Shown here: positions 4,772-29,941 of the stretch, piece by piece
Layout: every line of letters begins with the position of its first letter
Position numbering within the stretch: position 1 is the stretch's first letter
The notes under the pieces: generated by a model
What the model saw: the letters and a program-made list of their open reading frames with translations, nothing else
What the model was told of the DNA's origin: nothing
The model's database searches: none
Source of the DNA: Octopus vulgaris
Lineage: Eukaryota
Direction: 5' to 3'
DNA length: 64,000 nt
NCBI GenBank assembly: GCA_951406725.2
Contig: OX597815.1
Coordinates: forward strand, 15,438,001-15,502,000
Translations under genes and position numbers: made by a program

Positions 4772-5008
4772 AAGCCATTTAAGAAACACACAAAAGCCGT
4801 TCGATTCACTTCAACATTTAAATTTAATTTGTCAAAATATTTTCATCGCTTTGAGACCGCGACCTGTTCACTGACAAAACTTCGTGCTGCATCTCGGATT
4901 TTTGTCAGTGAACAGGTCGCGGTCTCAAAGCGCCGAAAATATTTTGACAAATTAAATTTAAATGTTGAAGTGAATCGATCAGTTTTTGTGTGTTTTTTTA
5001 AATGGCTT
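4772..5008. repeat. Long inverted repeat (~108-bp arms)
   Basis: 4772-4879 is the reverse complement of 4900-5008 with few mismatches. Confidence 0.92.
4901..4951 (+). ncRNA. Hammerhead motif with G3-C8 core variant in a fold-back
   Basis: TTTGTCA GTGAACA GGTCGC-GGTCTCAAA-GCGCC GAAA ATATTT TGACAAA. Confidence 0.6.
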
Positions 5009-5439
5009 GTCTGTTTGATAGCCCACCTGTCTCTTGAAGTATGTTCCAAATTGTGATGGTTGAATGCAGAAAGTACCTGTCCAGATTATACATCTTAGCA
5101 TCAAGTGTGTGAGAGGACATGTGCTGTCATGAATGTACTATCCCTTGGAAAACATCCTTCATAGTATTACTCTAAGGCTTGTGGCTTGTATGCATTTTGT
5201 GTGTGTGTGTGTGAAAAAGGATCAAAGGTCCATCCCTAACCATAGGCTCATAAGGTCAGTTTCTGTAGCATATATGCTCCAAATGACCGGGATGGGACAC
5301 CAGTCCATCATACGGTCACTCATTTTTGCCAGCTGAGTGAACTGGAACAACTTGAAAGGAAGTGCTTTGCTCAAGATCACAATGCCTCACTTGGTCCAGG
5401 AATTAAAAACCACAATCTTAGAATCATGATTGCAACACT

Positions 5440-5900
5440 CTGTAGCATGGCAGTTCACACACATGCATCATATAGTCTACCTTTCACCCTGATGAAGAGG
5501 CCTTTAGTTGCCAGCATAGGTAGGAGCTCCCTGAACTTTCCCCAGGCTATTCTTACTCTAGCCACTACACTCTTAGAGCAACCACCCTCACTACAGACTT
5601 GGTTGCCTAGGTAGCAGAAGCTTTTAACTACTTCTAGTTTCTTCCCATGGCATGTGATGGAATCTGTTGTCTGTATATCATCAGTGTTTATTGCCCCTGT
5701 GCATCTGCCACACACAAAAACTATTTTCCCAGTTAACCTTCCTTTAATATTGCTGCACCTTTTATGTGTCCATAGCTTACACCAAGTACATCATGTAGAG
5801 CTTCTACCCATGCCTTTTCTACAGATCAAGCAGGGCCATCTACCTGAAGGGGGTTGTGATTTGACAGCATTCCTACTTACTAAGACTTTGGTTTTAGCTA
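5440..5900 (-). mobile_element. RTE-clade LINE RT fragment
   Basis: LEVVKSFCYLGNQVCSEGGCSKSVVARVRIAWGKFRELLPML..VKGRLYDACV. Confidence 0.85.
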
Positions 5901-5933
5901 GGTTAATATTAATTTATCATTATAATATCTTAT

Positions 5934-5979
<46 letters not shown>

Positions 5980-6101
5980 CATACACACACATATACATAC
6001 ATACACACATATACATACATACATACATACACACATATACATACACATACACATATACACACACATGCACAAAAACTGTATGTTTTGTTATCTCTCTTCA
6101 G

Positions 6102-6255
6102 CTCCGAATCGTCTCTGCACCATTTCATCATGTAGGATTCGCAGATTTCTGGCTTGCTGACCAATTGAACAGCTTGGCACCGGTCATGTTGGACTTCTAT
6201 TATTTTATATGCTTTTATGCAATTGTTTTTAATTGGCAAACGACAGAATATAAAA
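6102..6255 (+). CDS. XPR1: XPR1 exon (EXS domain)
   Basis: LRIVSAPFHHVGFADFWLADQLNSL, a hallmark XPR1 motif; cttcag..gtaagg. Confidence 0.96.
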
Positions 6256-6588
6256 GTAAGGACAAGTCTTGTTTATTTATATAGCACTAGACTATTCCCT
6301 AGACTATTACCTTGAGATACCCACCACCCCATAAAACAATTGTTGATCATGTGAAGATAAAATTAATGCTGAAAGCAAAAATAATTGTAATTATCTGAAA
6401 TGTCTGATGTTATGAAGAAACAAAACTATTGTGCTTATCTTTCATTCTCTCACATTTAGAAGTAATTTTGATTTTTTTTTTTTTTTTTTTTTTTTGCTCC
6501 CTACATTTAGTATGTTAGGACTCACTAGTAAAACTGATTGCTGATACTATGCCAATATAATTATATCTCTTCTGTTTACTTATTTCAG

Positions 6589-6783
6589 CCGCCTCAACAT
6601 GCCTTCAGACAAAATATGGTATCCGAGCTATTGTCAACTGCTTGCCTGCATGGTTCCGTTTTGCTCAATGCCTTCGACGGTATAACGATACTCACCTAAA
6701 ATTCCCTCACATTGTAAACGCCGGGAAGTATGCTACCACTTTTCTGGTTGTGATATTTCACTCGATTTACAAAATGTACAAAG
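6589..6783 (+). CDS. XPR1: XPR1 exon (EXS domain)
   Basis: CLPAWFRFAQCLRRYNDTHLKFPHIVNAGKY; tttcag..gtaaga; phase 1-1. Confidence 0.96.
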
Positions 6784-7056
6784 GTAAGATGGATTCTCCT
6801 ATGTTATGTGTTCCTATTCCATTTCATATTTGGGTAGAATGACCCAATGTACTCCATATAAACTTTTGATAAACACAGCATATTAGATGTTGTTATTGTG
6901 TACGAATGTAACATCAATAAACCTTTCGTGAGAAACTGGCAATTCTCATGTTTGTCATCATCATGAGGAAGGGCAGACAGTTGTAGAAAATCTGCCTCGA
7001 CAAATTCTGTCTGACCCATGCAAGCATGGAAAAGTGGACACTGATAATGATGATGA

Positions 7057-7570
7057 TCATCATCATCGTTTAACGTCCGTTTTCCATGCTAGCATGGGTT
7101 GGACAGTTCGACCGGGGTCTGGGAAGCCAGAAGGTTGCACCAAGCTCCTGTCTGATCTGGCAGTGTTTCTACAGCTGGATGCTCTTCCTAACACCAACCA
7201 CTCCGTGAGTGTAGTGAGTGCTTTTTATGTGCCACCGGTACAGGTGCCTGGCAAGGCTGGCAACAGCCACGATAAGTTGGTGCTTTTTACTTGCCACCGG
7301 CACGGAAGCCAGTCAAGGTGGCGCTGGCATCGGCCACGTTCGGATGGTGCTTTTTATGTGCCACCGGCACAGGGATCACAACTGCAATTTCCATTGATTT
7401 TTGATGTTGATGTATTTGACTCAATGGATCTCCTCAAGCACAGGGTCGAAACGGTGTTTCTTTACTTACCACCTGCACAGGAGTCAGTCCAGCGGCACTA
7501 GTAATGGCCGGGTGCCAGTCATGGCATGGTCTTTACAGTTGGATGCCCTTCCTAAAACCAACCACTCCAT
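7057..7570 (-). mobile_element. RTE-type 3' end copy
   Basis: Same terminus with 2-3 internal units. Further copies at about 9565-9722, 9920-10095, 24655-24776, 30330-30560, 49388-49670, 56410-56631 and 63610-63800. Confidence 0.8.
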
Positions 7571-7759
7571 AGAGTGGGCTGAGTGCTTTTTACTTGGTAC
7601 TCACACAGGCAAGGTCAGTTTTGGTGTGGTTTTTACAGTTGGAATGTGGGGGATGTAGTTTGGTTTCTTGGTGTAGGGTGTATGAAAGTTTTATTGTGGG
7701 ACACAACACTTCTAGAACTCAGGGTCACTGATGTGGACGAATCTTCTCTAGAACCTCGC

Positions 7760-8630
7760 ATCACCAGACATCTTGGTCCAGTGTCCTTTCCTCTGTGCAT
7801 CCCAACATCCTGAGATCAGTCCTCACCAATTCATCCCATGTCTTCCTGGATCTCCTTCTTCTGCAGGTACCATCCACTTTCAGTGAGTGGCAATTCTTTA
7901 TGTAGCTGTCTTCATTCATATGCATCATATGTTCAAACCAGCATAATCTCCTCTCTTGCATGTTGCATCTGATTCCTCTTATGTCCAACTTTTCTCTCAA
8001 CACATTTTGTTGTTTATGCACATTGATGTTGCACATCCAGCAGAGCATACTATTTCTTTATTACCCACAAGGGGCTAAACACAGAGGGGACAAACAAGGA
8101 CAGACATAGGTATTAAGTCAATTACATCGACCCCAGTGCGTAACTGGTACTTAATTTATCGACCCCCGAAAGGATGAAAGGCAAAGTCGACCTCGGCAGA
8201 ATTTGAACTCAGAACGTAACGGCAGACGAAATACCTATTTCTATTTCTTTACTACCCACAAGGGTATAAACACAGAGGGGACGAACAAGGACACACAAAC
8301 GGATTAAGTCGATCATATCGACCCCAGTGCGTAACTGGTACTTAATTTATCGACCCCGAAAGGATGAAAGGCAAAGTCGACCTCGGCGGAATTTGAACTC
8401 AGAACGTAACGGCAGACGAAATACCACTAAGCATTTCGCCCGGCGTGCTAACGTTTCTGCCAGCTCGCCTTTCATCCAGCAGAGCATACTGCCTTCATTT
8501 CTCTCCAGTCTGTGTATGTCCTCTGCAGTCAGAGCTCATGTTTCCCTACCATAGAGTATAGCTGTTCATACACAACCATCATACAGTCTGTCTACCTTTC
8601 ATTCTCGGAGAGAGTCCTTTTGTTACCAAC
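7760..8630 (-). mobile_element. RTE-clade LINE RT C-terminal fragment, split by a SINE
   Basis: MLCWMCNI..LREKLDIRGIRCNMQERRLCWFEHMMHM..RSRKTWDE. Confidence 0.8.
8052..8472 (-). mobile_element. SINE family A, dimeric, inserted in an RTE fragment
   Basis: Two tandem bodies; TSD CATCCAGCAGAGCATACT at 8034-8051 and 8473-8490. Confidence 0.88.
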
Positions 8631-9229
8631 ACACACACACACACACACACATACAATCCAATGAATCAGCCTCGATGTGAGTGCTCATATCAGAAATAGG
8701 AACCACATCTCATTTAAATTATCTTCAACTTCTCCAGAATAGTTTGTTGTGGAATTTCTTCCCATCCCATTTTCCCCTTCAGGCAATGCTTCAATATTCA
8801 AACAAAAAATTACCCACATCAGCCTCACTAGTTTTCAAAAAATTAGATATATTTCATTCCTTTTTTAACATATATAATAATAATAATAATGAAATTAATT
8901 GTATACAGTGCTCAGGTGCACCACAACTTGTCAGAAAGTGCGTATAGAGTATATGCAGTAATGTAGAAATGTCTGGAAAGCGAACAATGTATGAGTCAGA
9001 TACATGCTTGCGTGTGTAGTGTTGGCGAATCTCAGGAAGCATGGAAGTTTTGAAGGATGCAGTGCTCTAACAACTGATGCCGGCAGTTTGTTCCATGCTT
9101 CAGCAACTCTCAGCGTGAAAAAATGTTTCCTGAAGTCATGGGAGCTGTGCTGTTTTCTGACTTTGTAAATATGTCCATGTAAATATAAATGATGAAAATA
9201 AACTGTGTTCTTTATTTGTATTTTGACAG

Positions 9230-9441
9230 AGAAACACGCTGCTCTTCCTGATGCTGGCAGTGACGAGATGGATGTCAGCTATGAAACAGAACAAACCATC
9301 TTCTATTACACCTGGATTGTTGCACTGCTAATTAGCTCCTGCTACACTTTCACCTGGGACATCAAGATGGATTGGGGTCTCTTAGAGAAAACTAAAGGTG
9401 AAAACAAGTTTCTGCGAGAAGAGTGTGTTTATGCCTATAGC
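9230..9441 (+). CDS. XPR1: XPR1 exon (EXS domain)
   Basis: ..[34 protein letters not shown]; gacag..gtgagt. Confidence 0.95.
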
Positions 9442-11693
9442 GTGAGTAGTACACTTGATGCTTGTCTGTCTGTTGTCTCTAACCCCACCCATGACTACAA
9501 CATGAGTAAAACTGTTGCTGTCTGTGTGTCTCTGATTTCATCCAACTAACTTCCACAATTTTACATCATCATCATCATCATCGTTTAACGTCCGCTTTCC
9601 ATGCTAACATGGGTTGGACAATTTGACTGAGGTCTCGCGAACCAGATGGCTGCACCAGGCCCCAATCTTGATCTGTTTTTACAGCTGGATGCCCTTCCTA
9701 ACGCCAACCACTCCGAGAGTGGGAATATCAATGTTGCAAATATCATATATGTATGTGGTAAATCCTTGGTCATCGTCTCCCACACTTAATAGCAGATTTC
9801 ATATCCATCAACAGATCTATTATTATCTCCATTATTATCCCTTCTTCATCTCCATTACCATCATCATAATCATCATTATCACCATCATTATAATCATCCT
9901 CATTACGACCATCATCATCATTTAACATCATTTTCCATGCTAGCATGGGTTGGACGGTTCGACCAGGGTCTAGGAAGCCAGGAGGCTGCACCAGGCTCCA
10001 ATCTTGATTTGGCAGTGTTTCTACAGCTGGATGCCCTTCCTAACGCCAACCACTCCAAGAGTGTAGTGGGTGCTTTTTACGTGCCACCGGCACAGCACCA
10101 TCATAATTATGATGATGATCATCATCAATTATAGGGCTGAGTAATTATTACTGATACTGCATTGTCTTACATAAACATCTATGAAAAACTGGATGTATTT
10201 CCTTACAACTGTGAAATACTATCACTTTTATTGCTGGGTTGTCCTTGCTATGATAGGATAGCACTGACACTAAGCCTTGCTTTTGTTTGAGTAGCCTTGT
10301 CATTGCCAATTACACCTTGCATTTAGTCATTACTCTTTGTTATATTCATTAAAATGTGATATTGTTATTAACCTTTGCTGTTCTGGTGTAGCTCTTTGTG
10401 GTTTTTACTGGTTTCTGAATATCCCTCCCTAGTCTGGAGCTATTCTGACCAAGGTAGAGTATCACTGACTAAAGTTGCATTGTTTTTTCTGAAGCAGAGT
10501 AATATATCTTTTCTTAAGAATATATTGCACTACTAGAAGCATGAGTTCAACCATTTGCCTTTCATCCTTTCGGGGTCGATAAATTAAGTACCAGTTACGC
10601 ACTGGGGTCGATGTAATCGACTTAATCCGTTTGTCTGTCCTTGTTTATCCCCTCTGTGTTTAGCCCCTTGTGGGTAATAAAGAAATACATATTGCACATA
10701 CATCAGTTTTTTAGCTGGCATAATAATCATATATTTAAGTACTTGTTCTTTCAAACTCCACCTGTCTAACACCCGTGGACATGTTTACAAAGTCAGAAAA
10801 CAGCACAGCTCCCATGACTTTCAGAAACATTTTTTCACGCTAAGAGTTGCTGAAGCATGGAACAAACTGCCGGCATCAGTTGTTAGTTGTCGGAGCACTG
10901 CATCCTTCAAAACTTCCATGCTTCCTGAGATTCGCCAACACTACACCTGATTTTCTCCCCTCCATACACATGCAGGCATGTATCTGACTCATACACTGTT
11001 CACTTTCCAGACATTTGTACATTAATGCATATGCTTTATATGCACTTTTTGACAAGTTGTGGTGCACCTGAGCACTGTATACAATAATTCCATTATTATT
11101 ATTATTATTATTATTATTATAATACTTACTCACATTTCTAAATTTATCAGAGTTATCCTACAACAAATAACCAAGCCATGGGAAACTATTTTAGTCATGG
11201 TTAATGTTGTGGAAGGATTCCATCCCCTGCCCAGTAACTAAAGGTGGACTGACTCATTCTTATAAATTAAAGAACTGTGAGTGAATGGCAGTTCGTGTTG
11301 GTAGCAGTTTACTGTGAGCTTTTGATATAGAGCATTGAGTCTCGTGTAATGGTAATAGTAGTGCGCCGTGCATATACTTTCTTCCCCACTGCTTTGTTAT
11401 ATTATATATCCAATACAAGGATATAAAAGTGGCAATGAGTTGTCTGAAGCTTGTGTTGGACATTTAAAATTTTTTTATTGGTACATAACCAAAGAAAAAT
11501 TCATTTAATATGGAGAACTTATTGGCCTCTGTGGTGTAGTTGCAACAGCAACAGTTCAAGAATTTGGGCCTGGAGATGGAGATTTCCATTTCCAGCAACT
11601 AATAATAGTAATAGTAGCAGCATCAGCAACAATAATAACAACAACATCAAAAAATACCTTAGGAATGAGAACCCAGGTTCAAAATTTCCCCAA

Positions 11694-11732
11694 GACACCT
11701 GATGAAGGCTATATTAGCTGAAACGTTGTGTT
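11694..11732 (+). ncRNA. Minimal type I hammerhead ribozyme motif (Penelope-like)
   Basis: GACAC CTGATGA A GGCT-ATATT-AGCT GAAAC GTT GTGTT: stem I, core, stem II, palindromic stem III AACGTT. Confidence 0.72.
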
Positions 11733-12033
11733 AACAACAAACAAAATGAGGACAAATATCCATCAAAGGTAAACAATGTAAATAATGTATTCTATAACTT
11801 GTCACCATATATTGTAATATTGTCCCTTCTCCTGCAATCAAAATTCACAGTGGGTTCAATCCATTTGGGTTCAAAAAGGTAATATGAATGATGTACAGCC
11901 TATATTTGGAGGCTGAAAAATTAAAGTCTGTAAACTATCATGTTTAGAAAGAAATATAAATGTTATATCAGAAAATATAGAATGTGATTATATAAACATG
12001 AAATTCTCAAAAATTGTTTAAATTTTATTTCAG

Positions 12034-12167
12034 GGTTATTATTACTTTGCTATTTTAGAAGATTTTATTCTTCGTTTTATATGGACTCTGAAAGTGTCTG
12101 TTATTGAAAATGGAATGGTCCAGAAAGAAGTTGCTAGTACTATACTAATGATTTTAGAAGTCTTCCG
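12034..12167 (+). CDS. XPR1: XPR1 exon (EXS domain)
   Basis: GYYYFAILEDFILRFIWTLKVSV..LEVF; tttcag..gtgagt; not in the ORF track. Confidence 0.94.
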
Positions 12168-12707
12168 GTGAGTTTTTTTTTTTTTTTTTTTTCATTTACT
12201 CCCTACTTTTATTCAGTGCATTTTAAGCCTGGCAAATACTACTGCCATATGACCATCACTAACCAACATCACTACCACTAAAACTGCAATTATGGAGTAC
12301 AATAATACAACATGTGAGAACTGAGATCAATAAATTGACTACCCCTCCCCACAAAATTTCAGGCCTTGTGCCTATAATAAGAATTGTTGTTATTATTGGA
12401 TTGACAGGATTGTCAGAGCACTATATAAATGCCTTGTGGTATTTGTTTCCACTCTTTATGTTCAAATCCTGCTGAGATCAACTTTGCATTTCATCCTATC
12501 AGGGTTTGACAAGATAAAATACCAGTCAAGTACTAGGGGTGGTATAATCGACATTCCACTGCTGCTCAAAATTTCTGGCTTTGTGCCACATCATCATCAT
12601 CATCATCATTAAATGTCCCCTCTCCATGCTGGCATGGGTCGGACAGTGTCATTCACATGGCATTGGTATCAACCACGTTGATTCACAGGTGCCTTTTACA
12701 TGGTACC

Positions 12708-13122
12708 TGTTTCTTTATTACCCACAAGGGGCTAAACATAGAGCAGACAAACAAGGACAGACAAATGGATTAAGTCGATTACATCGACCCCAGTGCGTAA
12801 CTGGTACTTAATTTATTGATCCCAAAAGGATGAAAGGCAAAGTCGACCTCGGCGGAATTTGAACTCAGAACGCAGCGGTGGACGAAAGACCTATTTCTTT
12901 ATTACCCACAAGGGGCTAAACATAGAGGGGACAAACAAGGACAGACAAACGGATTAAGTCGATTACATCCACCCTAGTGCGTAACTGGTACTTAATTTAT
13001 TGACCCCGAAAGGATGAAAGGCAAAGTCGACCTCTGCGGAATTTGAACCCAGAACGTAACGGCAGACGAAATACGGCTAAGCATTTCACCCAGCGTGCTA
13101 ACAGTTCTGCCAGCTCGCCGCC
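12708..13122 (-). mobile_element. SINE family A, dimeric
   Basis: Two tandem bodies; flanking direct repeat TTACATGGTACC. Partial copies also at about 10541-10686, 16941-17110, 28865-29021 and 34619-34825. Confidence 0.85.
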
Positions 13123-13764
13123 TTTTACATGGTACCATCAACAACCATGACTACGATGCACAGGTACCATTTACGTGGCACAGGCAACAGCCATGATGCA
13201 TGGATGCAATTTACATGACACTGGTATGGCTACAACTACGATTTCACTTGGTCTGATGAGTCTTCTCCTGCACAGTATATCACCAGAGTTCTCAGTCACT
13301 TGTCATCCCCTTCTTGAGGCCCAATGTTCAAAGATCATGCTTCACCGCCTCATCCCAATGTCTTCCTGGGACAACTGATGCTGGTGTATTTGCATCCCCA
13401 TAACTTAGCTGTTTGGCAGAAGAGACTGATAGAATAAGCACCAGGCTTACAGAGAATAACTCCAGGGTTCGATTTCTTCAACTAAAGGGTGGTGCTCCAG
13501 CATGGCCACCGTGAAATGACTGAAATAAGAAAGAGAATAAAAGAATACCAGGAGAACATTCAGTACCACTAAACCAAGAAAGTTCTTTGAATATGTATGA
13601 TGCATTCTAAGGCTAAATAGTAATTCTGTTACGTTTGCATAACAGATGTTTTGGTTGGATTCTATAGTTATCAGTTTTACACTTCTTTCTATATTCTGTA
13701 ACTGTCACAATATAGAAACATTTCACAAGGCACCAGCACACGATTTATGGATGGTTACATTTTG

Positions 13765-14029
13765 TATTCTGTTGTGTCTGGGGAGAGTCATTTTCTTTTT
13801 GTGCCTTATAATGTAACACACTCACTGGTAAAATTTCCACTTATTTCCTATTTTAATTTTCCTAAAATTTTTGTTGCGTCTTGCAAGAGTCAAGACTATT
13901 GAAAAGGTTGCAAGACGCAATGAAAATTTTAGGAAAATAAAAATAAGAAATAAGTGGAAATTTTACCGGTGAATGTGTTACATTATAAGGCACAAAAAGA
14001 AAATGACTTTCTCCAGACACAACAGAATA
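13765..14029. repeat. Long inverted repeat (~122-bp arms)
   Basis: 13765-13886 pairs with 13908-14029; a related diverged sequence lies at about 46100-46285. Confidence 0.9.
13896..13932 (+). ncRNA. Hammerhead motif with U3-A8 core variant in a fold-back (short stem I)
   Basis: CTA TTGAAAA G GTTGC-AAGAC-GCAAT GAAA ATTT TAG. Confidence 0.5.
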
Positions 14030-14520
14030 TGCTTCAACACACGAACTCATATAAAGAATCTTGCAAACCAAATCAAAAAACAAAATACATTTCGTATGTT
14101 TCCTGTGAATTTTTCACTGGTCCAGCTAGTTATTATTATTATTATTATTATTATTAGGCCAACGATGGACAATCATCCTGAAACACATGTCCCTAGATGC
14201 AGCCCGGGTGGCTGGGGGTATTTGTCTCCCCTTTGTAAATGTATATAAGGACACAGGAAAAATGTGTCAAAGCCATCAGGAGGCGTCGATGCTTCCTAGG
14301 GCTAAACAGCGGTGGTGTACCCGCCTACTGTCACGTTCGTGTTAGATTGACAGTATACAACCATTCCATTATTATTATTATTATTATTATTGTAAATATT
14401 GCACAGTATATAATATCGTGAGGTTGTTGATTGAAGATATTGTGTCTACCGGGGGTTTGTACTGTTTGTCAAGTCACAACAAGGATCTCAGACAGACAGT
14501 ACTTTACGCAATATGCACAA

Positions 14521-14555
<35 letters not shown>

Positions 14556-14730
14556 CATCATCATCAATATTATTATTATCATTATTATTATTTTTTTCCT
14601 TCTGTCTTCAAATTTTCTTCCATTTCTCGCCGAGTGTTTTCCGTACACCTAGAGCAGAGAAGCTCATTGTATGCATTCCCTGTGCTGCCGTTGTATGTTC
14701 TCATATCTACCCCCCTTTTCCATTTTACAG

Positions 14731-14913
14731 AAGATTCATTTGGAACTACTTCCGTCTGGAGAATGAGCACCTGAATAACTGTGGTCAGTTCCGAGCTGTG
14801 CGGGACATTTCTATTGCCCCAATTGAATCGAATGATCAAGCCTTATTGATGGAAATGATGGATGACCCAGACGGGCTAGGGCCACGAAAGTATCGAGACA
14901 GGTTCATGGAACG
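14731..14913 (+). CDS. XPR1: XPR1 exon (end of EXS domain)
   Basis: RRFIWNYFRLENEHLNNCGQFRAVRDI, an invariant EXS motif; ttacag..gtatgt. Confidence 0.96.
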
Positions 14914-15957
14914 GTATGTTCTCTTGCTTTATTATTTCAAAGTTTATGAATGAGCCAATGAAGAAACAACTCCTTTGTCACTCAAACTGTTAGAAATAAC
15001 AGCCAAATCATCTCCCCCCAAATAACATCTGAAATGCTTAAAATAATGGCAGAACACATTAGTTAATGTAATCTTAGGTACCCTTAAATGATGGGAGACA
15101 TGGCCAAAATACCTGTAATCATTAGGGTGTTGGTTCAGGATTGATTTGAGATTATACTGCAACATTTTGTTGAAGAACTTCTATGTAGATGATTTGAACT
15201 GCTAGGAATACATGTTTGATTTATACTAGCCATAGACATTGTTAGAATGTTCCACTCTTGAACAACATATACTTACTCTACTTGCCCTAAAGCAACTACA
15301 GAAACCAAAGCACAAGATTGTTTAACAGTTATGGAAATTGTATAAATCTTTTTAGAGATTTATGACTCTAACAAAGAAAGCCTTTTTTTTTTTTTCGCAA
15401 TCAGAGGTGAGATGGGTTTACCAATTTAGGCATTTAATTATGAGATGATTGAATAAATATTTTTAATACTTACATTTTTCTTGTTATTAATTTCTCAACC
15501 ATCAACTGAATTTCATGATTCATTCACCCATGTAATGGGAAGTAATACACCACTTACACATAAAACCAGCATAATCCATTCACCCATGAATGTAGGCTGC
15601 TTTTAGTGTTGTGGAGGCCTTGTACAGCTCACCTTTAAACTGATATCAAAAACTACTTGCCCCTAAAGTGAGCAGATCATAAGCTACTCAGTAAGTGAAA
15701 GTCTCTATTTACTTATAAAGGCCATAAACTACTCATTTATGAAGCGGAGGAATCATGCACCTGCAAGTGTGACAGTTGTCACAAAACTCATGTGAAGTGA
15801 GAAGTGGGTTCATAAGCCTCTAATTTCTTCCATCAAATAGAAGCCATTATACACTCACACACGAAGAAAGTTTAGAGGAGTAGATAATAACATTGTAACC
15901 AGCCACACAAATCTGTTTGTTGTGATATTGATGTTGTTTTTGATTTTTATATTTCAG

Positions 15958-16009
15958 AAATCGCAAAGATCCAAAGATTTGGATGAATTATGAAGATGAT
16001 AATGACTAA
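15958..16009 (+). CDS. XPR1: XPR1 terminal coding exon
   Basis: atttcag acceptor, phase compatible with the previous exon; RNRKDPKIWMNYEDDND* with TAA at 16007-16009. Confidence 0.75.
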
Positions 16010-18172: not shown

Positions 18173-18225
18173 TTGTTACATGAATGACTAATATCACGAA
18201 AGCTTAACCAGAGAGTAACGCCATA

Positions 18226-20644: not shown

Positions 20645-20900
20645 ATGTCACAACACACCAACAATGTAAATATAACCATCATATCACAACTTACCGATAG
20701 TGTCACAAGTTGCCAACAATGTTACAGCTTATCCCTGCTGTCACAACTTACCAACAGCATCACAACTTATCCTCAGTGTCACAACTTACCATCAGCGTAA
20801 CAACTTAACCATCATGTCATAACTTACCCTTCCTGTTACAATTTACCTTTGTGTCACAAATTATCTTCATGTCATAACTTGATACTTGTGTTACAATTTA
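20645..20900. repeat. Degenerate ~19-20-bp tandem repeat (TGTCACAACTTACC..)
   Basis: Recurrent TCACAACTTA units. Confidence 0.75.
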
Positions 20901-22981
20901 TCTTTATAACGGAGCTGTTGATACCGAAAGCTTCAAAGTCATGGAAGCTAAGCAGGTATGTACACATGGAGCGAGTTACCAGAGTGTCAATACAATATCA
21001 AATACTCACTTCAGCTGATAATTATTCTATTGTTGGAAAATAGTAAGGATCTGAGGGAGGCTTATGAAAACATACTAAAAAACAAAGACCATTCTAAACC
21101 AGAACTATTTATGGTGTTGGCATCATATAGCTATTCATCTGTGATGGAGACATTTTGTCTTTTAAAACTATGTATAGAATGACCACCATAACATGGACAA
21201 TTCTAGACTGATATAGATTAATCATTAAATGCATTGGTAGAATGACCAATGGACATGGGAGACTCACATATGCTTGGAACTTAAAATCATAGATCATGCT
21301 TCAATTCCCGCTGGCATTACAAAGAGGCAGGTAATGACAAGAACATTGCCTGTCTCAACATTGATTACATGGAATGAACCTGGGCTTCTATGCAATTGCT
21401 TAGCCTGCTAGAAACAGTAGGCAAATCACTCTCATATCACATCCTTACTATCTTTAAAAAAAGGAAGACCACATTAGACAATGTAGTCCTGATACAATAT
21501 CAAGAACAAAAAAATAGAATGGTAACGGCTGGAATAGCTTTGCTCAGAAGTTTGTTTCACAAGAGCTGTCCTGGGAAATTAAGCTGTTCAGATTGGTGTT
21601 AGTGTCATAGTTTCATCAAGCATCGTATTCATATTAAATTGGTGTTTTATACAAAGCCATGCACTACCATCCCACTTGCACATAATGAATTCATACTCGT
21701 CTCCTGTATTTGCCAACAGAATGTAACAATATTAGTCATAGTTGAAAGTCAGAAAACAACACAGCTCCCATGACTTTCGGAAACATTTTTTCATGCTCAG
21801 AGTTGCTGAAGCATGGAACAAACTGCCTGCGTCAGTTGTTGACTGTCATGACACTGCATCCTTTAAGGCCCTCATGCTTTCCGAAATCCGCCAAAACTAC
21901 ACCTGATTATACATACACTTTAGATGAGTTGTAGTGCACCTGAGCACTGTACACAATGTTTTATTATTATTAATATTCACAAGCATAGAGAGAAAATGTG
22001 AATATTTTTTATCCATTGAATGTTGTAATCAATAAATATTCTTTCATCAATGTAACAATTCCATTAAAACACAGATAGCTTCCAGCTACTGCAATTGTTG
22101 TCTATATAAACAGATCAGCTGTTTGTTTCCCTGGAATTGGTCAAATTGATGTAGAACTCTGGTGAGAACCCAATAAGGTTTGAAAATCAATTAAGGCTGT
22201 TCGTCATTTTTTCAATTTAAGGAGTAATGGCTAAATTAGCCCTAAAAATTAAAATTTCAATATATTAAGTTCACCATCATTGTCATAAAACAATAAGAAC
22301 CTACAATAAACAAGATGGTCAGATTTAGAACCACTCATTAAGTACTTTCTGCTCTTGGCCATCTCTGTACCTTAGACATATTCTTGTAGACCCAATCAGG
22401 GCAACACAATAACAGTGAGAAAATAAGTGTAACCAAAAATAAAATGCTGAAAATATTCATTCTAAAGCAAAAAAAAAAAAAACTTTCTCTATGTTTCTTT
22501 TCTTTTGATACTCCTGGGATGACAAGCAGTAGACTTAAAATCACAGTTCATGCTTCAATTCATGCAGGCATTACAAAGAGGCAGGTAATGACAAGAACAC
22601 TGCCTGTCTCAACATTGATTACATGGAATGAACTTGAGCTTCTATGCAATTGCTTAGCCTGCTAGAAACAGTAGGTAAATCAGTCTCATATCACATCCTT
22701 ACTGGCACAATAAGGAATTAGCAAAAACATGTTGACCAAGGAACTGCATTTCACATCTATCCAAGTTTGGTTTGGTCTTATATTCTTCTATGGGTTTACA
22801 AATCCATTTTTACTAAAAGGAATAATTGTAGTTGATTGATCTTATTGTATTATATTACAGGTACTTATGCCAATGAGTTGCACAAGAAGAAATAAAAGAG
22901 CAAAATTGACTGTCTCAGTTTGAACCAGAAATAAATGTTATCAAACAATCTGGTTTTCTACAAGCAGAATTGAATTTAATG

Positions 22982-23110
22982 CTCCTCCTCTTCCTTCTCC
23001 TCCTCCTCTTCCTTCTCCTCCTCCTCTTCCTTCTCCTCCTCCTCTTCCTTCTCCTCCTCCTCTTCCTTCTCCTCCTCCTCTTCCTTCTCCTCCTCCTCCT
23101 CCTTCTTCCT
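22982..23110. repeat. 18-bp pyrimidine tandem repeat (CTCCTCCTCCTCTTCCTT)n
   Basis: Directly visible. Confidence 0.92.
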
Positions 23111-23148
23111 AAACAATAAAGAATTTTGTTGTTGGAAATGAGACTTAC

Positions 23149-23391
23149 ACTACTCCCATGGGGATATTCTTGAACGTAAGGGGCAAATCTTTTGCCACTA
23201 CCATCATGGGAATATGGTGAAATTAGTTCTGCCGGCTGTTCACTCACATCACCAAGACTCCTAGAGTAAGGCGTTTGGAGTCTTTCTTGATGAACACTCC
23301 CACTGTTACTTGCAGGATATTGTGGGAGCATTCCTCCATCGTATGCAGAACCTCTTCCATAAGATGCAGTATCATATGCATTTTCATTTTG
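23149..23391 (-). CDS. Cadherin-related protein cytoplasmic exon
   Basis: tttattcag QNENAYDTASYGRGSAYDGGMLPQYPASNSG..YPHGSS gtaagt; 243 nt, phase 0-0. Confidence 0.8.
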
Positions 23392-25108
23392 CTGAATAAA
23401 AGAAAAATGTTAGTCAAAATATGTTAGTCTCTCTTTAGTAGTAGTATGGCCAATTTGAGAATAACGATGATGATGTTTTTATAGTCGTGACTGTTATTAT
23501 TATTATTATTATAATTATCATTAATATTTGATTATTATGGGAAAAGATGACAAAGGATCATAACAAGTGACATGCAAGATAAAAAAAAAGATGTTAAAAG
23601 TTATTATTATTATTATTATTATCATTATTATTATCGTTGTTGTTGTTGCTTTTAATGTTATCATTATTGTTATTGCTATTATTATCATTATTACGATCAT
23701 CATCATTGTCATCATCATCATCATCATCATTATTATTATTGTTTGTTTCTATTTCGACATTATCATAATTTTATTTATTTATTTTTTTTTTTTTACATAT
23801 TACTCATGTTTAAATTACAGTGGTAAAGAGATGAAACTAAGATTAAGGAGTTAACTTCTTTCTCTAATCTGCTCTTCATGAGGAACTGAGCTAGAAATCA
23901 GAAATCAGTGGCCTTGTTCGTGTGTCTGGGAGTCTTGTACTCTGAGAAATGCATCAGTTATGAAGGGGACACTCAAATATTATATTTCAGTTATTGGGTA
24001 GCTTACTATTATTAATTTTGTATTTATACCTATAATAGTCTTGCAACCAGATTCCACTGAGAAATACTTTCCACCACAATTCTCGGAGAGGCTGTTGTGT
24101 TCCAATAAAACCACTTTAAAGAGGAGAAACTACGTAAAAATTCTAAACTGTTGCCTTTTATTTTACGGCTTTTCAATTTATAGTGTTTTCTACATTGATT
24201 TCAGTTTAGCTTATAGAAATTGTTCATAATAAAGCCTGAAATTTATTAGAGGTGACCACAATCATACATTGAAATGAATGAAAGAAAACCAGATCACAAA
24301 TGAAAGATGCTGGTCACAAGGCATGTGGTCAGTTTTTGTTGGAGACAGTCACAGAGTTGCAACAGATTCCAGTATAACATATGTATTTATTTAATCAATC
24401 CTCACAAATTAAAGCTAAATTTAATCTTGCAATCAAGGAAGACAAGTCCTTAATCAGATTTTTGGGCCTGCCAGCTTACTTTACTGGAGTCTTTTTCCTT
24501 ATTTTCAAATACCGATTTCCTTAGACAAGGTATCAAGCCGAATGTTTGATTCAAGGAGGGCTGTTTAGTCAGCTGAGTGGACTTGGTGTATTACTAGTAA
24601 TTACTAGATGAACAAATGGTAAATTTAAACTTAAGCAGGATTTGAACTTGAAATCATCATCATCATCATTTAGCGTCTGCTTTCCATGCTAGCATGGGTT
24701 GGACGGTTCAACTGGGGTCTGGGAAGCCTGAAGGCTGCACCAGGCCCAGTCTGATCTGGCGATGTTTCTACGGCTTGAAATGAAGAGAACAAAACCAAAT
24801 AATGCAGTATATTTAGTTCAGCTCAATACAGCATGCGTCAAATTCATCTTCTTTCTGGTACTTTGTAAAAGGAATTTCTTTGAACAAGGTACAAATGGCT
24901 ATTTTCATAGTGAACGTAGCATAAGTTCTAGAATAAGTTCAAGTAAAGATAATTTTGGCCACTTGCTACATTAACATTCAGAAGAGAGAAGAGCCAAGCT
25001 AACAAGTGTTAAGCATGTAGTGTGATGTTCTTCCGTTTCTTTCCAATCACTGATACTTCTACGACTATATTAAATCATCTCATTTACCTTATATTGTAAG
25101 TAATATCA

Positions 25109-25505
25109 TCTTTATATATAAAAGTGAGGTTGTGTGCTGTCTGTCTCCTACGATTTAGATTCCTAACTACTCCCACATTTTGCGGTGCAGTTTAACCAAA
25201 ACCGGGTATCTTATAGTCGTGATTCATATCGAGCCCTTCTGGGTATTAGCGCACGTCTACGATGAGTCTACGATTTAAAAAAATTTACCATCATTTTTTT
25301 CCCTTTTAATGCATTTTTTCACTATTATATAAGGGAAGTAACTCTCTAAAAATGTCTACGATGAGTCAACGATTTTTAAAAAAATTTACCCTCATTTTTT
25401 TCCATTTTTAATGCATTTTTTGCTATTTTTTGGCTATAACTCTCCAAAAATGCTTATATAGTTATTTCCCTTACAAACCCGAGCAACACCGGACGATACT
25501 GCTAG
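25109..25505 (+). mobile_element. Non-autonomous Helitron
   Basis: A|TC start, subterminal GC hairpin CCGAGCAACACCGG, CTAG|T end, no TSD; second copy at 50708-51169. Confidence 0.8.
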
Positions 25506-25719
25506 TCATTTATAATATGATAATAATGAAATTATTGTATACAGTGCTCATGTGCACCACAACTTGTCAGAAAGTGCATATAAAGTATATGCAGTAATGT
25601 ACAAATATCTGGAACTCCTTAATCTTAGTTTCATCTCTTTACCACTGTAATTTAAACATCAGTAATATGTAAAAAAAAAAAAAACAATATAAAATTATGA
25701 TAATGACAAAATAGAAATT

Positions 25720-26060
25720 TATATCAACAAAGCCTTATAGTGTAAGTAATATCTTGTCAGTAATGGCATTTATATGAAGAAAACTTTATGAAATAAATAT
25801 TATATATTAAGAGTTACATTGACAAAACCTTATATTGTAAATCTTATATAGTAGGTAATATCATTTATATTAACAAAACATATTGTAAGTGACATATTAT
25901 ATTATATTGTAAGTAACATTATTCACGTTAAGAAAAACTTTAAATGTTAAGTAATACTATATTAACAAAACATTATTTTGTAAGTAATATTATTTAAATT
26001 AACAAAAACTTTATATTGTAAGTAATATTTATATTAATAAAACATCATACTGTAAATAAT
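25720..26060. repeat. Degenerate AT-rich tandem repeat (AAAACTTTATATTGTAAGTAATAT)
   Basis: Recurrent TATTGTAAGT units. Confidence 0.7.
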
Positions 26061-26448
26061 CTCTCTTTGCACTCCATCGGTTACGACGATGAGGGTTCCG
26101 GTTGATCCAAATCAACGGAACAGCCTGTTTGTGAAATTAACGTGTAAGTGGCTGAGCACTCCACAGACACGTGTACCCTTAACGTAGTTCTCAGGGATAT
26201 TCAGTGTGACACAGAGAGTGACAAGGCCGGCCCCTTGAAATACAGGTACAACAGAAACAGGAAGTAAGAGTGAGAGAAAGTTGTGGTGAAAGAGTACAGC
26301 AGGGACCACCACCATCCCCTGCCGGAGCCTCGTGGAGCTTTAGGTGTTTTCGCTCAATAAACACTCACAACGCCCGGTCTGGGAATCGAAACCGCGATCC
26401 TATGACCACGAGTCCGCTGCCCTAACCACTGGGCCATTGCGCCTCTAC
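26061..26448 (-). mobile_element. tRNA-derived SINE family C with TSD
   Basis: tRNA-like head GGCGCAATGGCCCAGTGGTTAGGGCAGCGGACTCG..GGTTTCGATTCCC; TSD ACTGTAAATAAT at 26049-26060 and 26449-26460. Confidence 0.87.
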
Positions 26449-26481
26449 ACTGTAAATAATATTAGTTACATCAACAAAATG

Positions 26482-26862
26482 CAGGCATGGCTGTGTGGTA
26501 AGAGTTTTGCTTCCCAACCACACAGTTCCAGGTTCAGTTCCACTGCACATCACCTTGGGCAAGTGTTTTCTACTATAGCCTTGGGCCAACCAAGGCCTTG
26601 TGACTGGATTTGTTGTATGGAAACTGAAAGAGGCCATTTATATATCTGTGTTTGTTTTTGTCTCACACCACTGCTTGACATCCAGTGTTGGTGTGTTTAT
26701 GTTCCCATAACTTAGCAGTTCAGTATAAGACACCAAGAGAATAAGCACCAGGCTTTTAAAAAAAATTAATAATGAGGTTGATTCATTCGACTAAAAATTC
26801 TTTAAGGTAGCGCCCCAGCATGGCCACAGTCTAATGACTGAAACAAGTAAAATATATAAAAA
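26482..26862 (+). mobile_element. SINE family B, diverged copy
   Basis: Same head, CORE-like block and tail with more substitutions. Confidence 0.72.
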
Positions 26863-27031
26863 GTTTTTGTAAGTTTTTAATGTAAGCTATCATTTACCCT
26901 ATTTAAACTGGAATATTTCCCCACTTGAATACTAAACAGTCTTAACTATTTAAAGTAAGAAATCTACCAATCACTAAGTCGTCACTACAAAATGAAATCT
27001 ACAGATGCAGATGTTTTAAGATTCTACTTAC

Positions 27032-27115
27032 TCCACTCCTGCGACTATTCCTCTCAGAATAAGGTGCAGGGGTATCAGGACGTCGAGAAACTGCATCATA
27101 CATGAATTGATCTGG
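27032..27115 (-). CDS. Cadherin-related protein cytoplasmic exon
   Basis: tttttacag PDQFMYDAVSRRPDTPAPYSERNSRRSG gtaagt; 84 nt, phase 0-0. Confidence 0.75.
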
Positions 27116-29039
27116 CTGTAAAAAATATTAAATATTAATTTTTATTTATATTTTTGATTAGACTGGTTTGAAACCAGTGCAACTGATGCAGTTAATGTAC
27201 TTCTTCAAAAGCCCCAAGTCAATGGTCACAACGAAAAAACATATGCAAGAAGGGAATGTAAAGAAGGTGCTCACTGGAAGAATTAAAGGAGGGATAGTCA
27301 CTGTAAGGCTGAGAGAAGGAGAATTATATTGTAGGCTTGGAAGAAGAAAGAGTACATTGCAGGACTGGGAGAAAAGGATGTACCATGTAGGATGGGAGAA
27401 AGAGGTACATATTATTGGAATGGGAAAAGGAGCATATTGTCAGGTTATGAGAAGGGGAGCATATTATAGGACAGGCCTTATCCACTAAATATCCAGGCAC
27501 TAGCCCTGAGTTTGAAGGTTCTAATTCCATGCAGTTCATGCTCAGAGGGATGGAGTGACTGCAAATAGGTAGTTCATGTTTTGACTGAAGAGTGAAGGGA
27601 ATAGAATTGAACCTTGGAGCACATCACAGATGATTAATTGTGGATCAGAGAGAGTTACCTCAGTATGTACCACAATTGTGCAGATTGGAAGATATTTATC
27701 CAAATGCCAAAAGATTAAGAGCCTAAGATGGGAAGTGTTGTAAATAGATTCATGTATTACATATGGCCAAAAGCTTTGCTGATATCTAAGGCAGCAACAC
27801 TGTTTTCATCCAACTTCTTGATGATGAGGACCTACTGGTGAGTGACAATAGGAGATTTGATCTCCAGTAAATCTGGTTTTACAAGAAACATAACTGTAGT
27901 AATTGAGAAGGGGAAGAGATTTAAGATCAGTGTTAATGATTGTCTTCATCATCATAAGTTGGAAATGAGTATGATAAGATGATAGCAAATAGGGTGACTA
28001 CAGGAATGGGGGACTTTACAGAAATGTTTCTAGAATCAAGAGTCTGCAAAGTAAATCTAGCAAAGATAAAAGTTCTGACAGGAAAGAAAATTACTTGCTT
28101 CTGCCATTCAGGAAGTGGACATGCTTAGTATGCAGAAAAGGAGTTCAAAAGAATTCCACACTGTAGCAAGTGTAAACTTCCAGTGCACAAGAGATCCAGA
28201 AGGATGACAGACTGGATGACAAGCAAGACAGACTTTATAAGTTGAGGACGCACAGGAATAGTCAGCAGTTGTAAAAGGAATTCTTTTAGATACTAACACA
28301 TCCACAGTATTAGTTGATAACTTCTCTTACTTAGGTAACCTAATTAACAAAAACGGTGCATGCTCTGAAACAGGCTATGAACAGGGTGAAGAAAGTTCAT
28401 GGGGATACTATTTCTTATGATAGCAAATGGAATCAGTCTTTAAGTGAAAGGTAGATAGTATGATACTATGTCGGATGACAGCAAAACACAAACATTGAAA
28501 ATCAAAGACATGAGAAGGCTGTTGTGCAACCACTGTTAGTGGCACACCCACTGATGATCCCACAGCCACAGATATTAACATACCCAGAGATATCTGTGTC
28601 CATACTGATACTCGTGAACCCACTGAAATCTATATACGTATTTATTTTAATATAGCCATTGATAATCGCGCACATACCAATATACTAGCAATCAAATTTA
28701 CTGGTATTTCCACACCCGATCGTAATTGCATACTACTTATGATTGCACATTCCCTGATAATTTTTGTACATCCCTTGATATCTATGTACGTACTGATATT
28801 TGTGCATGCACTGATATCCATACACATATTTATATTCATGTAGTCTCTGATAATCATGAACATACCTATTTATTTACTACCCACAAGGGGCTAAACACAG
28901 AGGAGACAAACAAGGACAGACAAATGGATTAAGTCGATTACATCGACCCAGTGCGTAACTGGTACTTAATTTATCGACCCTGAAAGGATGAAAGGCAAAG
29001 TTGACCTCGGCGGAATTTGAACATATAACAACCCAGAAA

Positions 29040-29651
29040 ATTGCTCACAAAGTGGGAATAAGCACAAGATCGGTGCAATCGATTTTAATGGAGATTTGTG
29101 AATGCAGAAGGTGATGGCAAAATGAATTCCCAAGGTTCTAAGGTAGCAGTAGAAGCAACTCTGCTTGGAAATCGCTCAGGACTCGCTGGACTATGCAAAA
29201 CTACGACCCAGACTTTATGATGTCTATCATCATTACTAATGAGAGATGGCTTTATGGTCTCTGCTTGACATGTTCACTTACCTTATGTGAAAACGAAAAT
29301 TCAACAAGCATGCGCTACATGTCTGTACTCTAGGTGTAACAGCCAAGAATTGACACAGCCTACCAGAGCAAAAATTTACATGCGTACGCAAGAAGGGTGG
29401 CATCGCCTTCCACCCAAATTCCATGAGCACAAAATCCTTCGGGTAGCAGGTGATGTCACCCTTCTTGGGCATACATGTAAATTTTTGCTCTGGTTGGCTG
29501 CATCAGCTCCTGGCTGTTATGCCTAGAATACAGACATGTAGTGCATGCTTGTTGGATTTTTGCTTTCACATAAGAAGAATGAACAAATCAAGCAGAGACC
29601 ATAAACCCATGTCTCATCACTAGTGATGATAGTCTTCATGAAGTCTGGGTC
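29040..29651. mobile_element. Mariner fragment forming a fold-back with ~210-bp arms
   Basis: Arms 29205-29418 and 29439-29651; the right arm on the minus strand reads DPDFMKTIITSDETWVYG (first catalytic D of mariner). Confidence 0.75.
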
Positions 29652-29667
29652 ATGGTGTGTGTGTATA

Positions 29668-29695
<28 letters not shown>

Positions 29696-29698
<3 letters not shown>

Positions 29699-29941
29699 CT
29701 GTAAATGTAATATGTGATAATTATTCGGTAGCCAAGATAAAACTCTAAGTTTCGGATGATGAGGTGAAAATCCACACCATCATCTCTTCAGTTATCTGGC
29801 TATCGGAAAAACGCAATTCATAGCGTTTTTCCGATGGCCGGATAACTGAGGAGATGGTGGCGTGGATGTCCACCTCGGCATCTGAAACTCAGAGTCTTAT
29901 CTTGGCTACCGAATAATTGTCACATATTACATTTACAGATA
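29696..29941. repeat. Long inverted repeat (119-bp arms, 8-nt loop)
   Basis: 29696-29814 pairs with 29823-29941. Confidence 0.92.
29841..29901 (+). ncRNA. Type I hammerhead motif in a fold-back (mirror copy on the - strand at 29736-29796)
   Basis: GATAA CTGAGGA GATG..CATC T GAAAC TCAGA GTC TTATC; canonical GUC triplet. Confidence 0.68.

What the first reader, a model, noticed from the sequence alone, without database searches (positions are those of the whole stretch)
4772..29941. Set of fold-back elements carrying minimal hammerhead ribozymes with covarying cores
Seen: four otherwise unrelated intronic repeats share one layout: stem I, NUGANNA, stem II, GAAA, a short near-palindromic stem III, UH, then the stem I complement. 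The cores are CUGAUGA (11699), CUGAGGA/CUGAAGA (29846 and its mirror), GUGAACA (4908) and UUGAAAA (13899). Positions 3 and 8 are always complementary (C-G, G-C, U-A). Three of the four sit in 108-122-bp-arm palindromes. Known: the 3-8 tertiary pair covaries in natural hammerheads; minimal type I hammerheads with palindromic stem III that work as dimers, and inverted terminal-repeat arrangements, are hallmarks of Penelope-like elements and retrozymes. Inference: these are several families of short non-autonomous ribozyme retroelements with no ORF. The fold-back could silence the ribozyme in cis, or produce dsRNA, inside host pre-mRNAs.
Basis: partly seen in the sequence, partly recalled or inferred. 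Interest (0 to 1): 0.82.

Follow-up and report, generated by a model that had tools for sequence, protein, structure and literature searches.

The report
Fold-back stubs of octopus Penelope retroelements
The four hammerhead ribozyme motifs are real and sit in short leftover end-pieces of Penelope-like jumping genes in an octopus genome, where the hairpin shape is likely a known by-product of insertion that is predicted to switch the ribozyme off, the one unusual point being a very abundant family with a naturally swapped G3-C8 core pair.

Summary
The motifs are real: 6 hammerhead matches in 4 elements, all with a complementary 3-8 pair, against 0.22 in shuffles. They are not ORF-less retrozymes. 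The element at 4687-5010 carries the first 30 codons of a protein 29/30 identical to an Octopus sinensis record. Overlapping octopus records link it to reverse transcriptase plus C-terminal GIY-YIG proteins: a Penelope-like element (PLE). Contigs of three runs show a huge family with two 3' ends about 60 nt apart and a non-fixed fold-back centre (0.3-1.1% of arm depth). The 13.8-kb element has the same one-sided tail at two loci. The 29.8-kb element matches Hydra-clade PLE hammerheads and their (TA)n target. Head-to-head inverted pLTRs with one tail are the published PLE insertion signature. The fold-back costs the hammerhead fold 33-73 kcal/mol. Of note: a family-wide natural G3-C8 core, not found in my literature searches, and a depth step at the predicted cut site in 2 of 3 runs. 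Cleavage is untested. The scan noted similar stubs and G3-C8 cores in other genomes.

The parts
4687..5010 (.). Element E1: head-to-head pair of pLTR stubs of a PLE family with a G3-C8 hammerhead
   Evidence: Family depth confined to about 4680-5000 and loose ends at 4686-4687 in 3 of 3 contig runs; arms by BLAST
4687..4894 (-). E1 left copy, reading outward, with the roughly 60-nt tail (4687-4745)
   Evidence: Two 3' ends, 4686-4687 and 4744-4749 (table 7)
4689..4778 (-). Start codon and first 30 codons of the parent PLE ORF
   Evidence: 29/30 identical to P0006 residues 1-30 and 22/24 to P0001
4828..4878 (-). E1 left hammerhead, core GUGAACA at 4871; predicted cut before 4834
4895..5010 (+). 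E1 right copy, 10 nt more 5'-truncated than the left, no tail
4901..4951 (+). E1 right hammerhead, core GUGAACA at 4908, 7-bp stem I, 6-nt palindromic stem III; predicted cut before 4945
11694..11732 (+). E2: single minimal hammerhead (CUGAUGA, one extra nucleotide before stem II, 4-nt palindromic stem III), sense to the host gene; likely solo pLTR stub (about 11648-11790, ends not determined)
   Evidence: no second copy in the window; parent not identified
13765..14070 (.). Element E3: head-to-head pair; left copy (13765-13886, -) truncated inside stem II; right copy with hammerhead and tail
13896..13932 (+). E3 hammerhead with U3-A8 core (weakest motif, 3-bp stem I); predicted cut before 13930
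   Evidence: the related locus at -46271 also begins UUGAAA
14030..14070 (+). E3 tail of about 40 nt or more, on the right copy only; continues an open frame similar to PLE ORF starts
29699..30005 (.). Element E4: head-to-head pair inserted in a (TA)n tract; likely tail 29943-30005 on the right copy
   Evidence: (TA)n on both sides; the tail is inferred from the flanks only
29735..29797 (-). E4 left hammerhead, CUGAAGA at 29791, stem III of 4 bp with a one-base loop
   Evidence: layout as in the Hydra-clade table
29840..29902 (+). E4 right hammerhead, CUGAGGA at 29846
46070..46290 (-). E3b: second, diverged member of the E3 group with a decayed UUGAAA core and the tail (46103-46140)
46738..46762 (+). 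E3b inverted partner, truncated to about 21 nt, no tail; separated from the left copy by another repeat

Best explanation
These elements are short end-pieces (pseudo-LTRs) of Penelope-like retrotransposons, shown for E1 and likely for the other three, each carrying the minimal hammerhead such elements normally have, and the fold-backs are likely head-to-head double insertions in which the ribozyme is predicted to be trapped and inactive. Shown: E1 holds a hammerhead and the first 30 codons of an RT/GIY-YIG ORF; its family has two 3' ends, a one-sided tail, variable junctions and AT-rich flanks; E3 and E3b repeat the one-sided tail. Inferred from the PAc in vitro work (PMC11167929): the PLE protein nicks AT-rich DNA on both strands and starts reverse transcription inside the first codons of its own ORF at one of two sites (short end, tail end), then copies towards the 5' end of the RNA. 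This yields 150-300-nt stubs; two such copies joined at their 5' ends give the palindrome. Inferred for E1: most copies stop just past an intron-like 3' splice site, so they may be complete copies of the short 5' end of the spliced mRNA. Computed: in head-to-head geometry a read-through host transcript makes the antisense arm first, and the hairpin outcompetes the hammerhead. In these copies the ribozyme is a passenger; in the parent it would cut only as a dimer or with protein help.
For: ORF link: tail-peptide profile finds P0001 at E 3.7e-7; P0006 29/30 identical; P0006 and P0001 overlap P0007; P0068 runs into an RT motif A-like stretch (motif recalled); 29 of 29 longer homologues of P0007 carry YVDD and TDKS; 16 of 18 proteins of 900 aa or more have the CX2-5CxxC linker (several share clusters); P0016 hits RVT_1 (E 5.6e-4) and GIY-YIG (E 5.7e-4). 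Geometry: every hammerhead reads outward from the centre. E1's short end lies about 11 codons into the ORF; Pen2a_Av's pLTR holds 12 codons, 22 with tail (PMC3846280). E1's short end is 86-91 nt past the cut; PAc starts RT 85-92 nt past it (arithmetic). Family data: 18,957, 12,828 and 8,168 contigs laid; centre depth 1.1%, 0.4%, 0.3% of the arms; inverted partners end at 4709, 4750, 4756, 4790, 4794, 4826 among the 15 joints shown of 160. E3/E3b share arm end and one-sided tail with different centres. E4 matches the Hydra-clade hammerhead table and (TA)n target, and Penelope-13_HM is listed there with an inverted copy and hammerheads on both strands. Folding penalties 72.9, 71.4, 33.1, 64.9, 62.5 kcal/mol in palindromes and 0.6 for E2.
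Against: No full-length parent was seen as DNA: no genome is held and tblastn finds no RT or endonuclease in the window; the link runs through overlapping protein records, one a chimeric gene model (P0006). Pfam RT and GIY-YIG hits are below curated cut-offs, with RVT_1 in only 3 of 18 proteins scanned and GIY-YIG in 1 of 18. For E3 the ORF link is weaker: hhalign places the three-peptide profile (which includes E1) at residues 3-27 of P0009 with E 4.2e-5, but an independent HMM of homologue N-termini ranks E3 second at E 5.6 and does not list E1; the synonymous-change test gave p 0.012, 0.053 and 0.21 for the three pairs. E2 has no family or parent evidence, and E4's clade rests on resemblance. 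Most E1 copies share a rather sharp 5' boundary (95% of depth lost between 4884 and 4894 in X2), which a short non-autonomous element would also give. Contig depth is not a copy number.
Confidence: 0.85

Rival explanations
1. The roughly 200-nt single units (not the palindromes) are true non-autonomous PLE derivatives that are transcribed and re-mobilised in trans by the parent's protein, SINE-like, which explains their very high number.
For: Summed depth about 1e5 times the flanks in 3 of 3 contig runs and a sharp 5' boundary; the unit keeps the RT start region, which suffices for insertion in vitro in PAc; putatively non-autonomous PLEs such as MRC1 are in print; a few head-to-tail joints exist (4977 to 4895, table 5c).
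Against: The same boundary is expected if RT starts in the first codons of full-length mRNA and runs to its 5' end; a minority of contigs continue into shared intron-like upstream sequence (83, 55, 38 contigs). No promoter or transcript was tested. This rival is compatible with the main reading for the palindromes.
Confidence: 0.3
2. The palindromes are self-propagating fold-back elements (retrozyme- or MITE-like) whose hairpin is part of the life cycle.
For: Near-perfect symmetry to the centre in E1 and E4; both arms keep an intact core.
Against: Centre depth 0.3-1.1% of the arms and many different junctions; E3 and E3b have different centres; tails on one side only; ORF start present; opposite-strand ribozymes cannot dimerise in cis, whereas animal retrozymes are same-strand tandem repeats. 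Family data exist for E1 only.
Confidence: 0.06
3. The 13899 motif is a chance or decayed look-alike rather than a U3-A8 hammerhead.
For: 3-bp stem I and an unstable stem III duplex; the related copy at -46271 has a broken core and no stem I; loose settings give 0.22 chance hits per window.
Against: Both loci start UUGAAA at the same place; stem II (5 bp, extra base, G-C closing pair in the left arm and in E3b) fits the published consensus; it faces outward about 100 nt before the short end; U3-A8 cores are reported in PLEs.
Confidence: 0.15

Closest known systems
Insertion units of endonuclease-bearing Penelope-like elements (Arkhipova et al. 2013, PMC3846280; Craig et al. 2021, PMC8557442)
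   Same: Head-to-head inverted 5'-truncated pLTR, palindrome at the junction, optional tail on one copy, pLTR overlapping the first codons of the ORF, AT-rich or (TA)n targets.
   Different: Here both copies are reduced to the pLTR; the E1 tail is about 60 nt rather than 30-40; no target-site duplication is evident by eye.
Minimal PLE hammerheads (Cervera and de la Pena 2014, PMC4209133)
   Same: Extra base before stem II, G10.1-C11.1, tiny palindromic stem III, U3-A8 variant, dual motifs on opposite strands 100-700 bp apart.
   Different: E1 has G3-C8, which the two parts I read do not report; dual motifs here are only 37 and 55 nt apart.
Hydra-clade PLE hammerheads, including Hydra-1_oBim of Octopus bimaculoides (PMC8557442, File S2)
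   Same: E4: CUGA(A/G)GAG core, an extra base before GAA, stem III of 4 bp with a one-base loop (identical to Penelope-3_HM in the right arm), (TA)n target.
   Different: E4 is not the Hydra-1_oBim sequence (different stems; two E4 motifs absent from the supplement); its ORF was not found.
PAc, Poseidon element of Anolis (Frangieh et al. 2024, PMC11167929)
   Same: Hammerhead just upstream of two RT start sites within the ORF start; C3G/G8C partly rescues cleavage.
   Different: There the swap is engineered; here it is the natural state. E1's parent has a Neptune/Nematis-type linker (definition), and its ORF starts 56 nt after the cut.
Non-LTR retrozymes (PMC7229834; bioRxiv 10.64898/2026.07.22.740005)
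   Same: Type I hammerheads, PLE ancestry, no full ORF.
   Different: Retrozymes are same-strand tandem repeats with canonical hammerheads that yield circles; these elements are inverted or solo.

Membership tests
Minimal type I hammerhead of PLEs | Core NUGANNA / GAA / UH with a complementary 3-8 pair | tested here: met
   6 of 6 motifs; no core variant at 6% or more among the 40 rows shown of 43 for the E1 family
Minimal type I hammerhead of PLEs | Extra base beside stem II and G10.1-C11.1 closing pair | tested here: met
   E1 family majority letters give it (C4933A 97-99%, A4845G 71-87%); single copies carry G-U or mismatches here
Minimal type I hammerhead of PLEs | Short palindromic stem III permitting dimers | tested here: met
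   Self-complementary in all; duplex energies -0.2, -0.2, -1.7, +2.2, -7.4, -4.2 kcal/mol
Minimal type I hammerhead of PLEs | Compensatory changes in stems I and II across a family | tested here: inconclusive
   E1 family too homogeneous: one change keeps a G-U pair in stem I (A4947G/T4832C), others look like CpG decay
Minimal type I hammerhead of PLEs | Self-cleavage at NUH | not testable with these tools
   No assay; no raw RNA reads were laid
Penelope-like element (EN+) | Parent ORF with RT and C-terminal GIY-YIG | tested here: met
   E1 only, through overlapping protein records and homologues; inconclusive for E3; not found for E2 and E4
Penelope-like element (EN+) | pLTR overlaps the first codons of the ORF | tested here: met
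   E1: about 11 codons to the short end, 30 with tail
Penelope-like element (EN+) | Optional tail on one copy | tested here: met
   E1, E3 and E3b; E4 inferred from flanks
Penelope-like element (EN+) | Head-to-head inverted, variably 5'-truncated copy | tested here: met
Penelope-like element (EN+) | Full-length genomic copy flanked by these pLTRs | not testable with these tools
   No genome held
Neptune or Nematis clade (E1 parent) | CX2-5CxxC linker and CCHH endonuclease; clade placement by RT tree | tested here: inconclusive
   Linker in 16 of 18 long homologues, none of them from octopus; no tree with reference elements was built
Hydra clade (E4) | Hammerhead layout and (TA)n target | tested here: met
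Hydra clade (E4) | ORF with DKT motif and endonuclease lacking CCHH | not tested
   No ORF linked to E4
Non-LTR retrozyme | Same-strand tandem repeats each with a hammerhead | tested here: not met
   No same-strand pair of one family in the window; only scattered head-to-tail joints in the E1 family
Non-LTR retrozyme | Circular RNA intermediates | not testable with these tools
   No raw RNA reads available
Self-propagating fold-back element (MITE-like) | Fixed internal junction shared by copies | tested here: not met
   E1 centre 0.3-1.1% of arm depth; E3 and E3b differ; E4 not tested

The most novel reading that the evidence does not exclude
One of the most abundant octopus repeats (order 1e5 arms, rough) is a PLE whose hammerhead naturally uses G3-C8 and does cut in vivo: about four in ten copies would start at the cut site, being reverse transcripts of the ribozyme's 3' product. 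This would be genomic evidence that hammerhead cleavage feeds PLE retrotransposition, which in vitro work found dispensable. Basis: mirror-summed depth falls 43% and 44% across the cut in X6 and X8 but only 13% in X2, and 3 of the 15 joints shown land 2-4 nt past the cut. A subfamily with a different 5' part explains the step as well: variant A4822G has shares of 42%, 40% and 28%.
Probability: 0.15. Interest if true: 0.6.

Novelty: new member of a known kind. Interest (0 to 1): 0.3.

Why it matters
As a class this is ordinary: PLEs make up 6.83% of the Octopus vulgaris genome in 190 families, and inverted pLTR stubs with minimal hammerheads are their published footprint. The useful residue is threefold. 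(1) A natural G3-C8 core fixed in a very large family, which C3-G8/U3-A8 descriptors would miss; my searches found G3-C8 only as an engineered change, but Lunse et al. (PMC5785218) was not held and the supplement of PMC4209133 was not seen. (2) With so many copies, the 5' ends of this family make the open question of whether PLE hammerheads cut in vivo testable from genome data alone. (3) Hairpins of 110-125 bp in host introns would be substrates for A-to-I editing, which is extensive in cephalopods (recalled; not tested).

Tried and rejected
Whole genome: none held. Rfam: no hammerhead family among 62 matches at E<=5. Collections: E2 21-mer gave 0 in metagenomes; E1 18-mer gave 0 in viral contigs, 31 in metagenomes and 25 in GTDB, all chance: longest alignment 34 nt over 56 loci. 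Raw-read run X22 laid 1 read of 12.9 million and was uninformative. No RNA holder listed, so expression is open. E3 peptide alone found no longer homologue. P0002, P0004 and P0005 are repetitive proteins and were dropped; P0003 resembles the E3 peptide at residues 7-26 but is an unnamed 77-aa record. Independent N-terminal HMM was not significant. Atlas: P0001 gave nothing (0.75); P0007 gave unnamed eukaryotic clusters with DUF8422 in 16-41% of members. PDB: nothing. The 148 nt after the E1 cut fold worse than all 200 shuffles (z +1.9), so I found no support for a conserved stem-loop at the RT start. Repeats at 21276 and 22530, flagged by peptide score, are a separate repeat with no hammerhead hit. 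Fold-backs at 29200 and 30043 have no hammerhead under a relaxed scan. The descriptor hit at -45037 was rejected as chance.

Full report
Observation. The sequence holds the four motifs at the stated places, two of them with a mirror copy on the other strand. A descriptor written after seeing them gives 7 hits at loose settings against 0.53 in 30 shuffles. With the 3-8 pair left free it gives 6 hits, all Watson-Crick, against 0.22 complementary and 0.53 non-complementary hits in 60 shuffles. The six are four independent elements. Rfam has no hammerhead among 62 matches. Three elements are long palindromes, and in each the hammerhead reads outward from the centre, so the copies meet at their 5' ends. 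E1-E3 lie between exons of an EXS-domain gene on +. Named protein records place the DNA in Octopus.

E1 is the end-piece of a coding element. Contigs of three public runs laid on 4560-5159 (18,957, 12,828 and 8,168 records; the fourth run, raw reads, gave 1) show a family confined to about 4687-5000, with summed depth some 1e5 times the flanks (a rough indication, not a copy number). It has two 3' ends, at 4686-4687 and 4744-4749, and AT-rich flanks. Depth at the fold-back centre is 1.1%, 0.4% and 0.3% of the arms, and the joints shown (15 of 160) have the inverted partner cut at many points. No core position varies at 6% or more in the 40 rows shown of 43, so G3-C8 is the family state. The majority letters complete a five-pair stem II with the extra base and G-C closing pair that Cervera and de la Pena describe. 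Reading outward, an ATG at -4778 opens 30 codons that run to the tail end. A profile of this peptide and the two E3-type peptides found P0001 of O. bimaculoides (E 3.7e-7; 1 of 5 hits). P0006 of O. sinensis is 29/30 identical. These overlap P0007 and P0068 of O. vulgaris, whose 29 longer homologues all carry YVDD. Of 18 proteins of 900 residues or more, 16 have the CX2-5CxxC linker. Pfam support is weak: RVT_1 in 3 of 18 and GIY-YIG in 1 of 18, below cut-off. The architecture is that of a C-terminal-endonuclease PLE of Neptune/Nematis type; the clade is not resolved. No RT or endonuclease lies in the window.

E3, E4 and E2. A second E3-type locus at 46070-46762 has the same arm end, a tail of about 40 nt on one copy only, a different centre and again a UUGAAA core start. 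The E1 tail's two best ungapped matches in the window are the E3 and E3b tails (33 and 32 of 60; next 31), in frame and at the same distance from the short end. The coding signal is modest (p 0.012, 0.053, 0.21), hhalign puts the three-peptide profile at the N-terminus of P0009 (E 4.2e-5), and an independent HMM was not significant. So E3 is likely, not certainly, a relative of E1. E4 sits between two (TA)n tracts with about 63 extra bases on its right copy; its hammerhead layout and target match the Hydra-clade table, which includes an octopus element and one element with an inverted copy and hammerheads on both strands. E2 is a textbook minimal hammerhead with no partner, family or parent found here.

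Mechanism. Published PLE insertions have an inverted 5'-truncated copy joined head-to-head, a palindrome at the junction, a tail on one copy and a pLTR that overlaps the first 12-22 codons. In vitro, the PAc protein cuts AT-rich DNA on both strands and starts RT at two sites inside the ORF start, which define the tail; its hammerhead needs protein, tolerates C3G/G8C partly and is dispensable for insertion. E1's short end lies 86-91 nt past the predicted cut, as the PAc start does (85-92 nt). I infer that these elements are short reverse transcripts running from those start sites to the RNA's 5' region. In E1 most depth ends between 4884 and 4894, and the minority of contigs that continue read, on the element's strand, as a branch point and pyrimidine tract ahead of the AG at 4894-4893 (read by eye). 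This recalls the intron ending next to the hammerhead in D. virilis Penelope. The palindromes raise the cost of the hammerhead fold by 33-73 kcal/mol, against 0.6 for E2. Any transcript meets the antisense arm first and holds only one sense ribozyme, so neither monomer nor cis-dimer cleavage is expected. Cleavage and expression were not tested.

What remains open. Depth summed over both arms falls 43% and 44% across the predicted cut in two runs and 13% in the third, and 3 of 15 joints shown land 2-4 nt past it. This could mean copies made from cleaved RNA, or a subfamily with another 5' part. The sharp 5' boundary also leaves room for the single units being re-mobilised as non-autonomous elements.

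Literature seen. PMC4209133: parts 1-2 of 4 of the text, supplements not seen. PMC8557442: passages, three supplement searches and part 2 of 59 of the supplement. PMC11167929: passages and the second half of the main text. PMC3846280, PMC3088659, PMC6765202, PMC6155905, PMC7229834, PMC8495972, PMC3884650: passages. PMC13282606: passages (no mention of hammerhead or ribozyme) and a supplement search. bioRxiv 10.64898/2026.07.22.740005: part 1 of 5. Lunse et al. (PMC5785218): not held, known only as cited. Natural U3-A8 is in print. I found natural G3-C8 in none, but the unseen paper and supplements may hold it.

Verdict. Real motifs, known kind: pLTR stubs of several octopus PLE families, with fold-backs as insertion by-products. 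Interest 0.3, for the family-wide G3-C8 core and the testable depth step at the cut site.

Noticed in passing
window 4884-4894 and upstream in family contigs: Contigs that continue past the E1 centre share an upstream sequence that reads as an intron 3' end (branch point, pyrimidine tract, AG) 14 nt before stem I; an ATG follows the AG and opens a short frame across the hammerhead.
   Followed up: partly
window 29200-29656: A larger fold-back (219-nt arms, 83%, 19-nt spacer) ending at the same (TA)n tract as E4; no hammerhead found; possibly a stub of a hammerhead-less PLE.
   Followed up: partly
window 30043-30148: A small fold-back (33 nt perfect, about 45-nt arms) starting at the (TA)n tract right of E4; with the two neighbours it makes three fold-backs clustered on TA repeats.
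   Followed up: partly
window 41421-41659: An abundant SINE-like repeat (81 BLAST hits in the window) whose two halves are inverted copies of each other.
   Followed up: no
window 21270-21450 and 22530-22700: Two copies of another short repeat of about 170 nt, with no hammerhead hit.
   Followed up: partly
window 1090-14950: EXS-domain gene (XPR1-like, name recalled) on +, exons near 1150, 4350, 6560, 9230, 12110 and 14700.
   Followed up: partly
window 59010-61616: Cadherin-domain exons on the - strand; the gene probably extends left over E4.
   Followed up: no
window 58193-58741, 35442-35696, 36814-37128, 40649-41296: Remnants of a mariner-type transposase (Pfam Transposase_1), a DDE transposase, and two non-LTR retrotransposon ends (recognised from memory; no relevant Pfam hit).
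   Followed up: no
P0006: The O. sinensis gene model is a chimera: a PLE ORF start joined to a methyltransferase domain.
   Followed up: partly
window 4847-4861: Family variants in stem II are mostly C-to-T and G-to-A at CpG sites, as expected from methylation decay after insertion.
   Followed up: no
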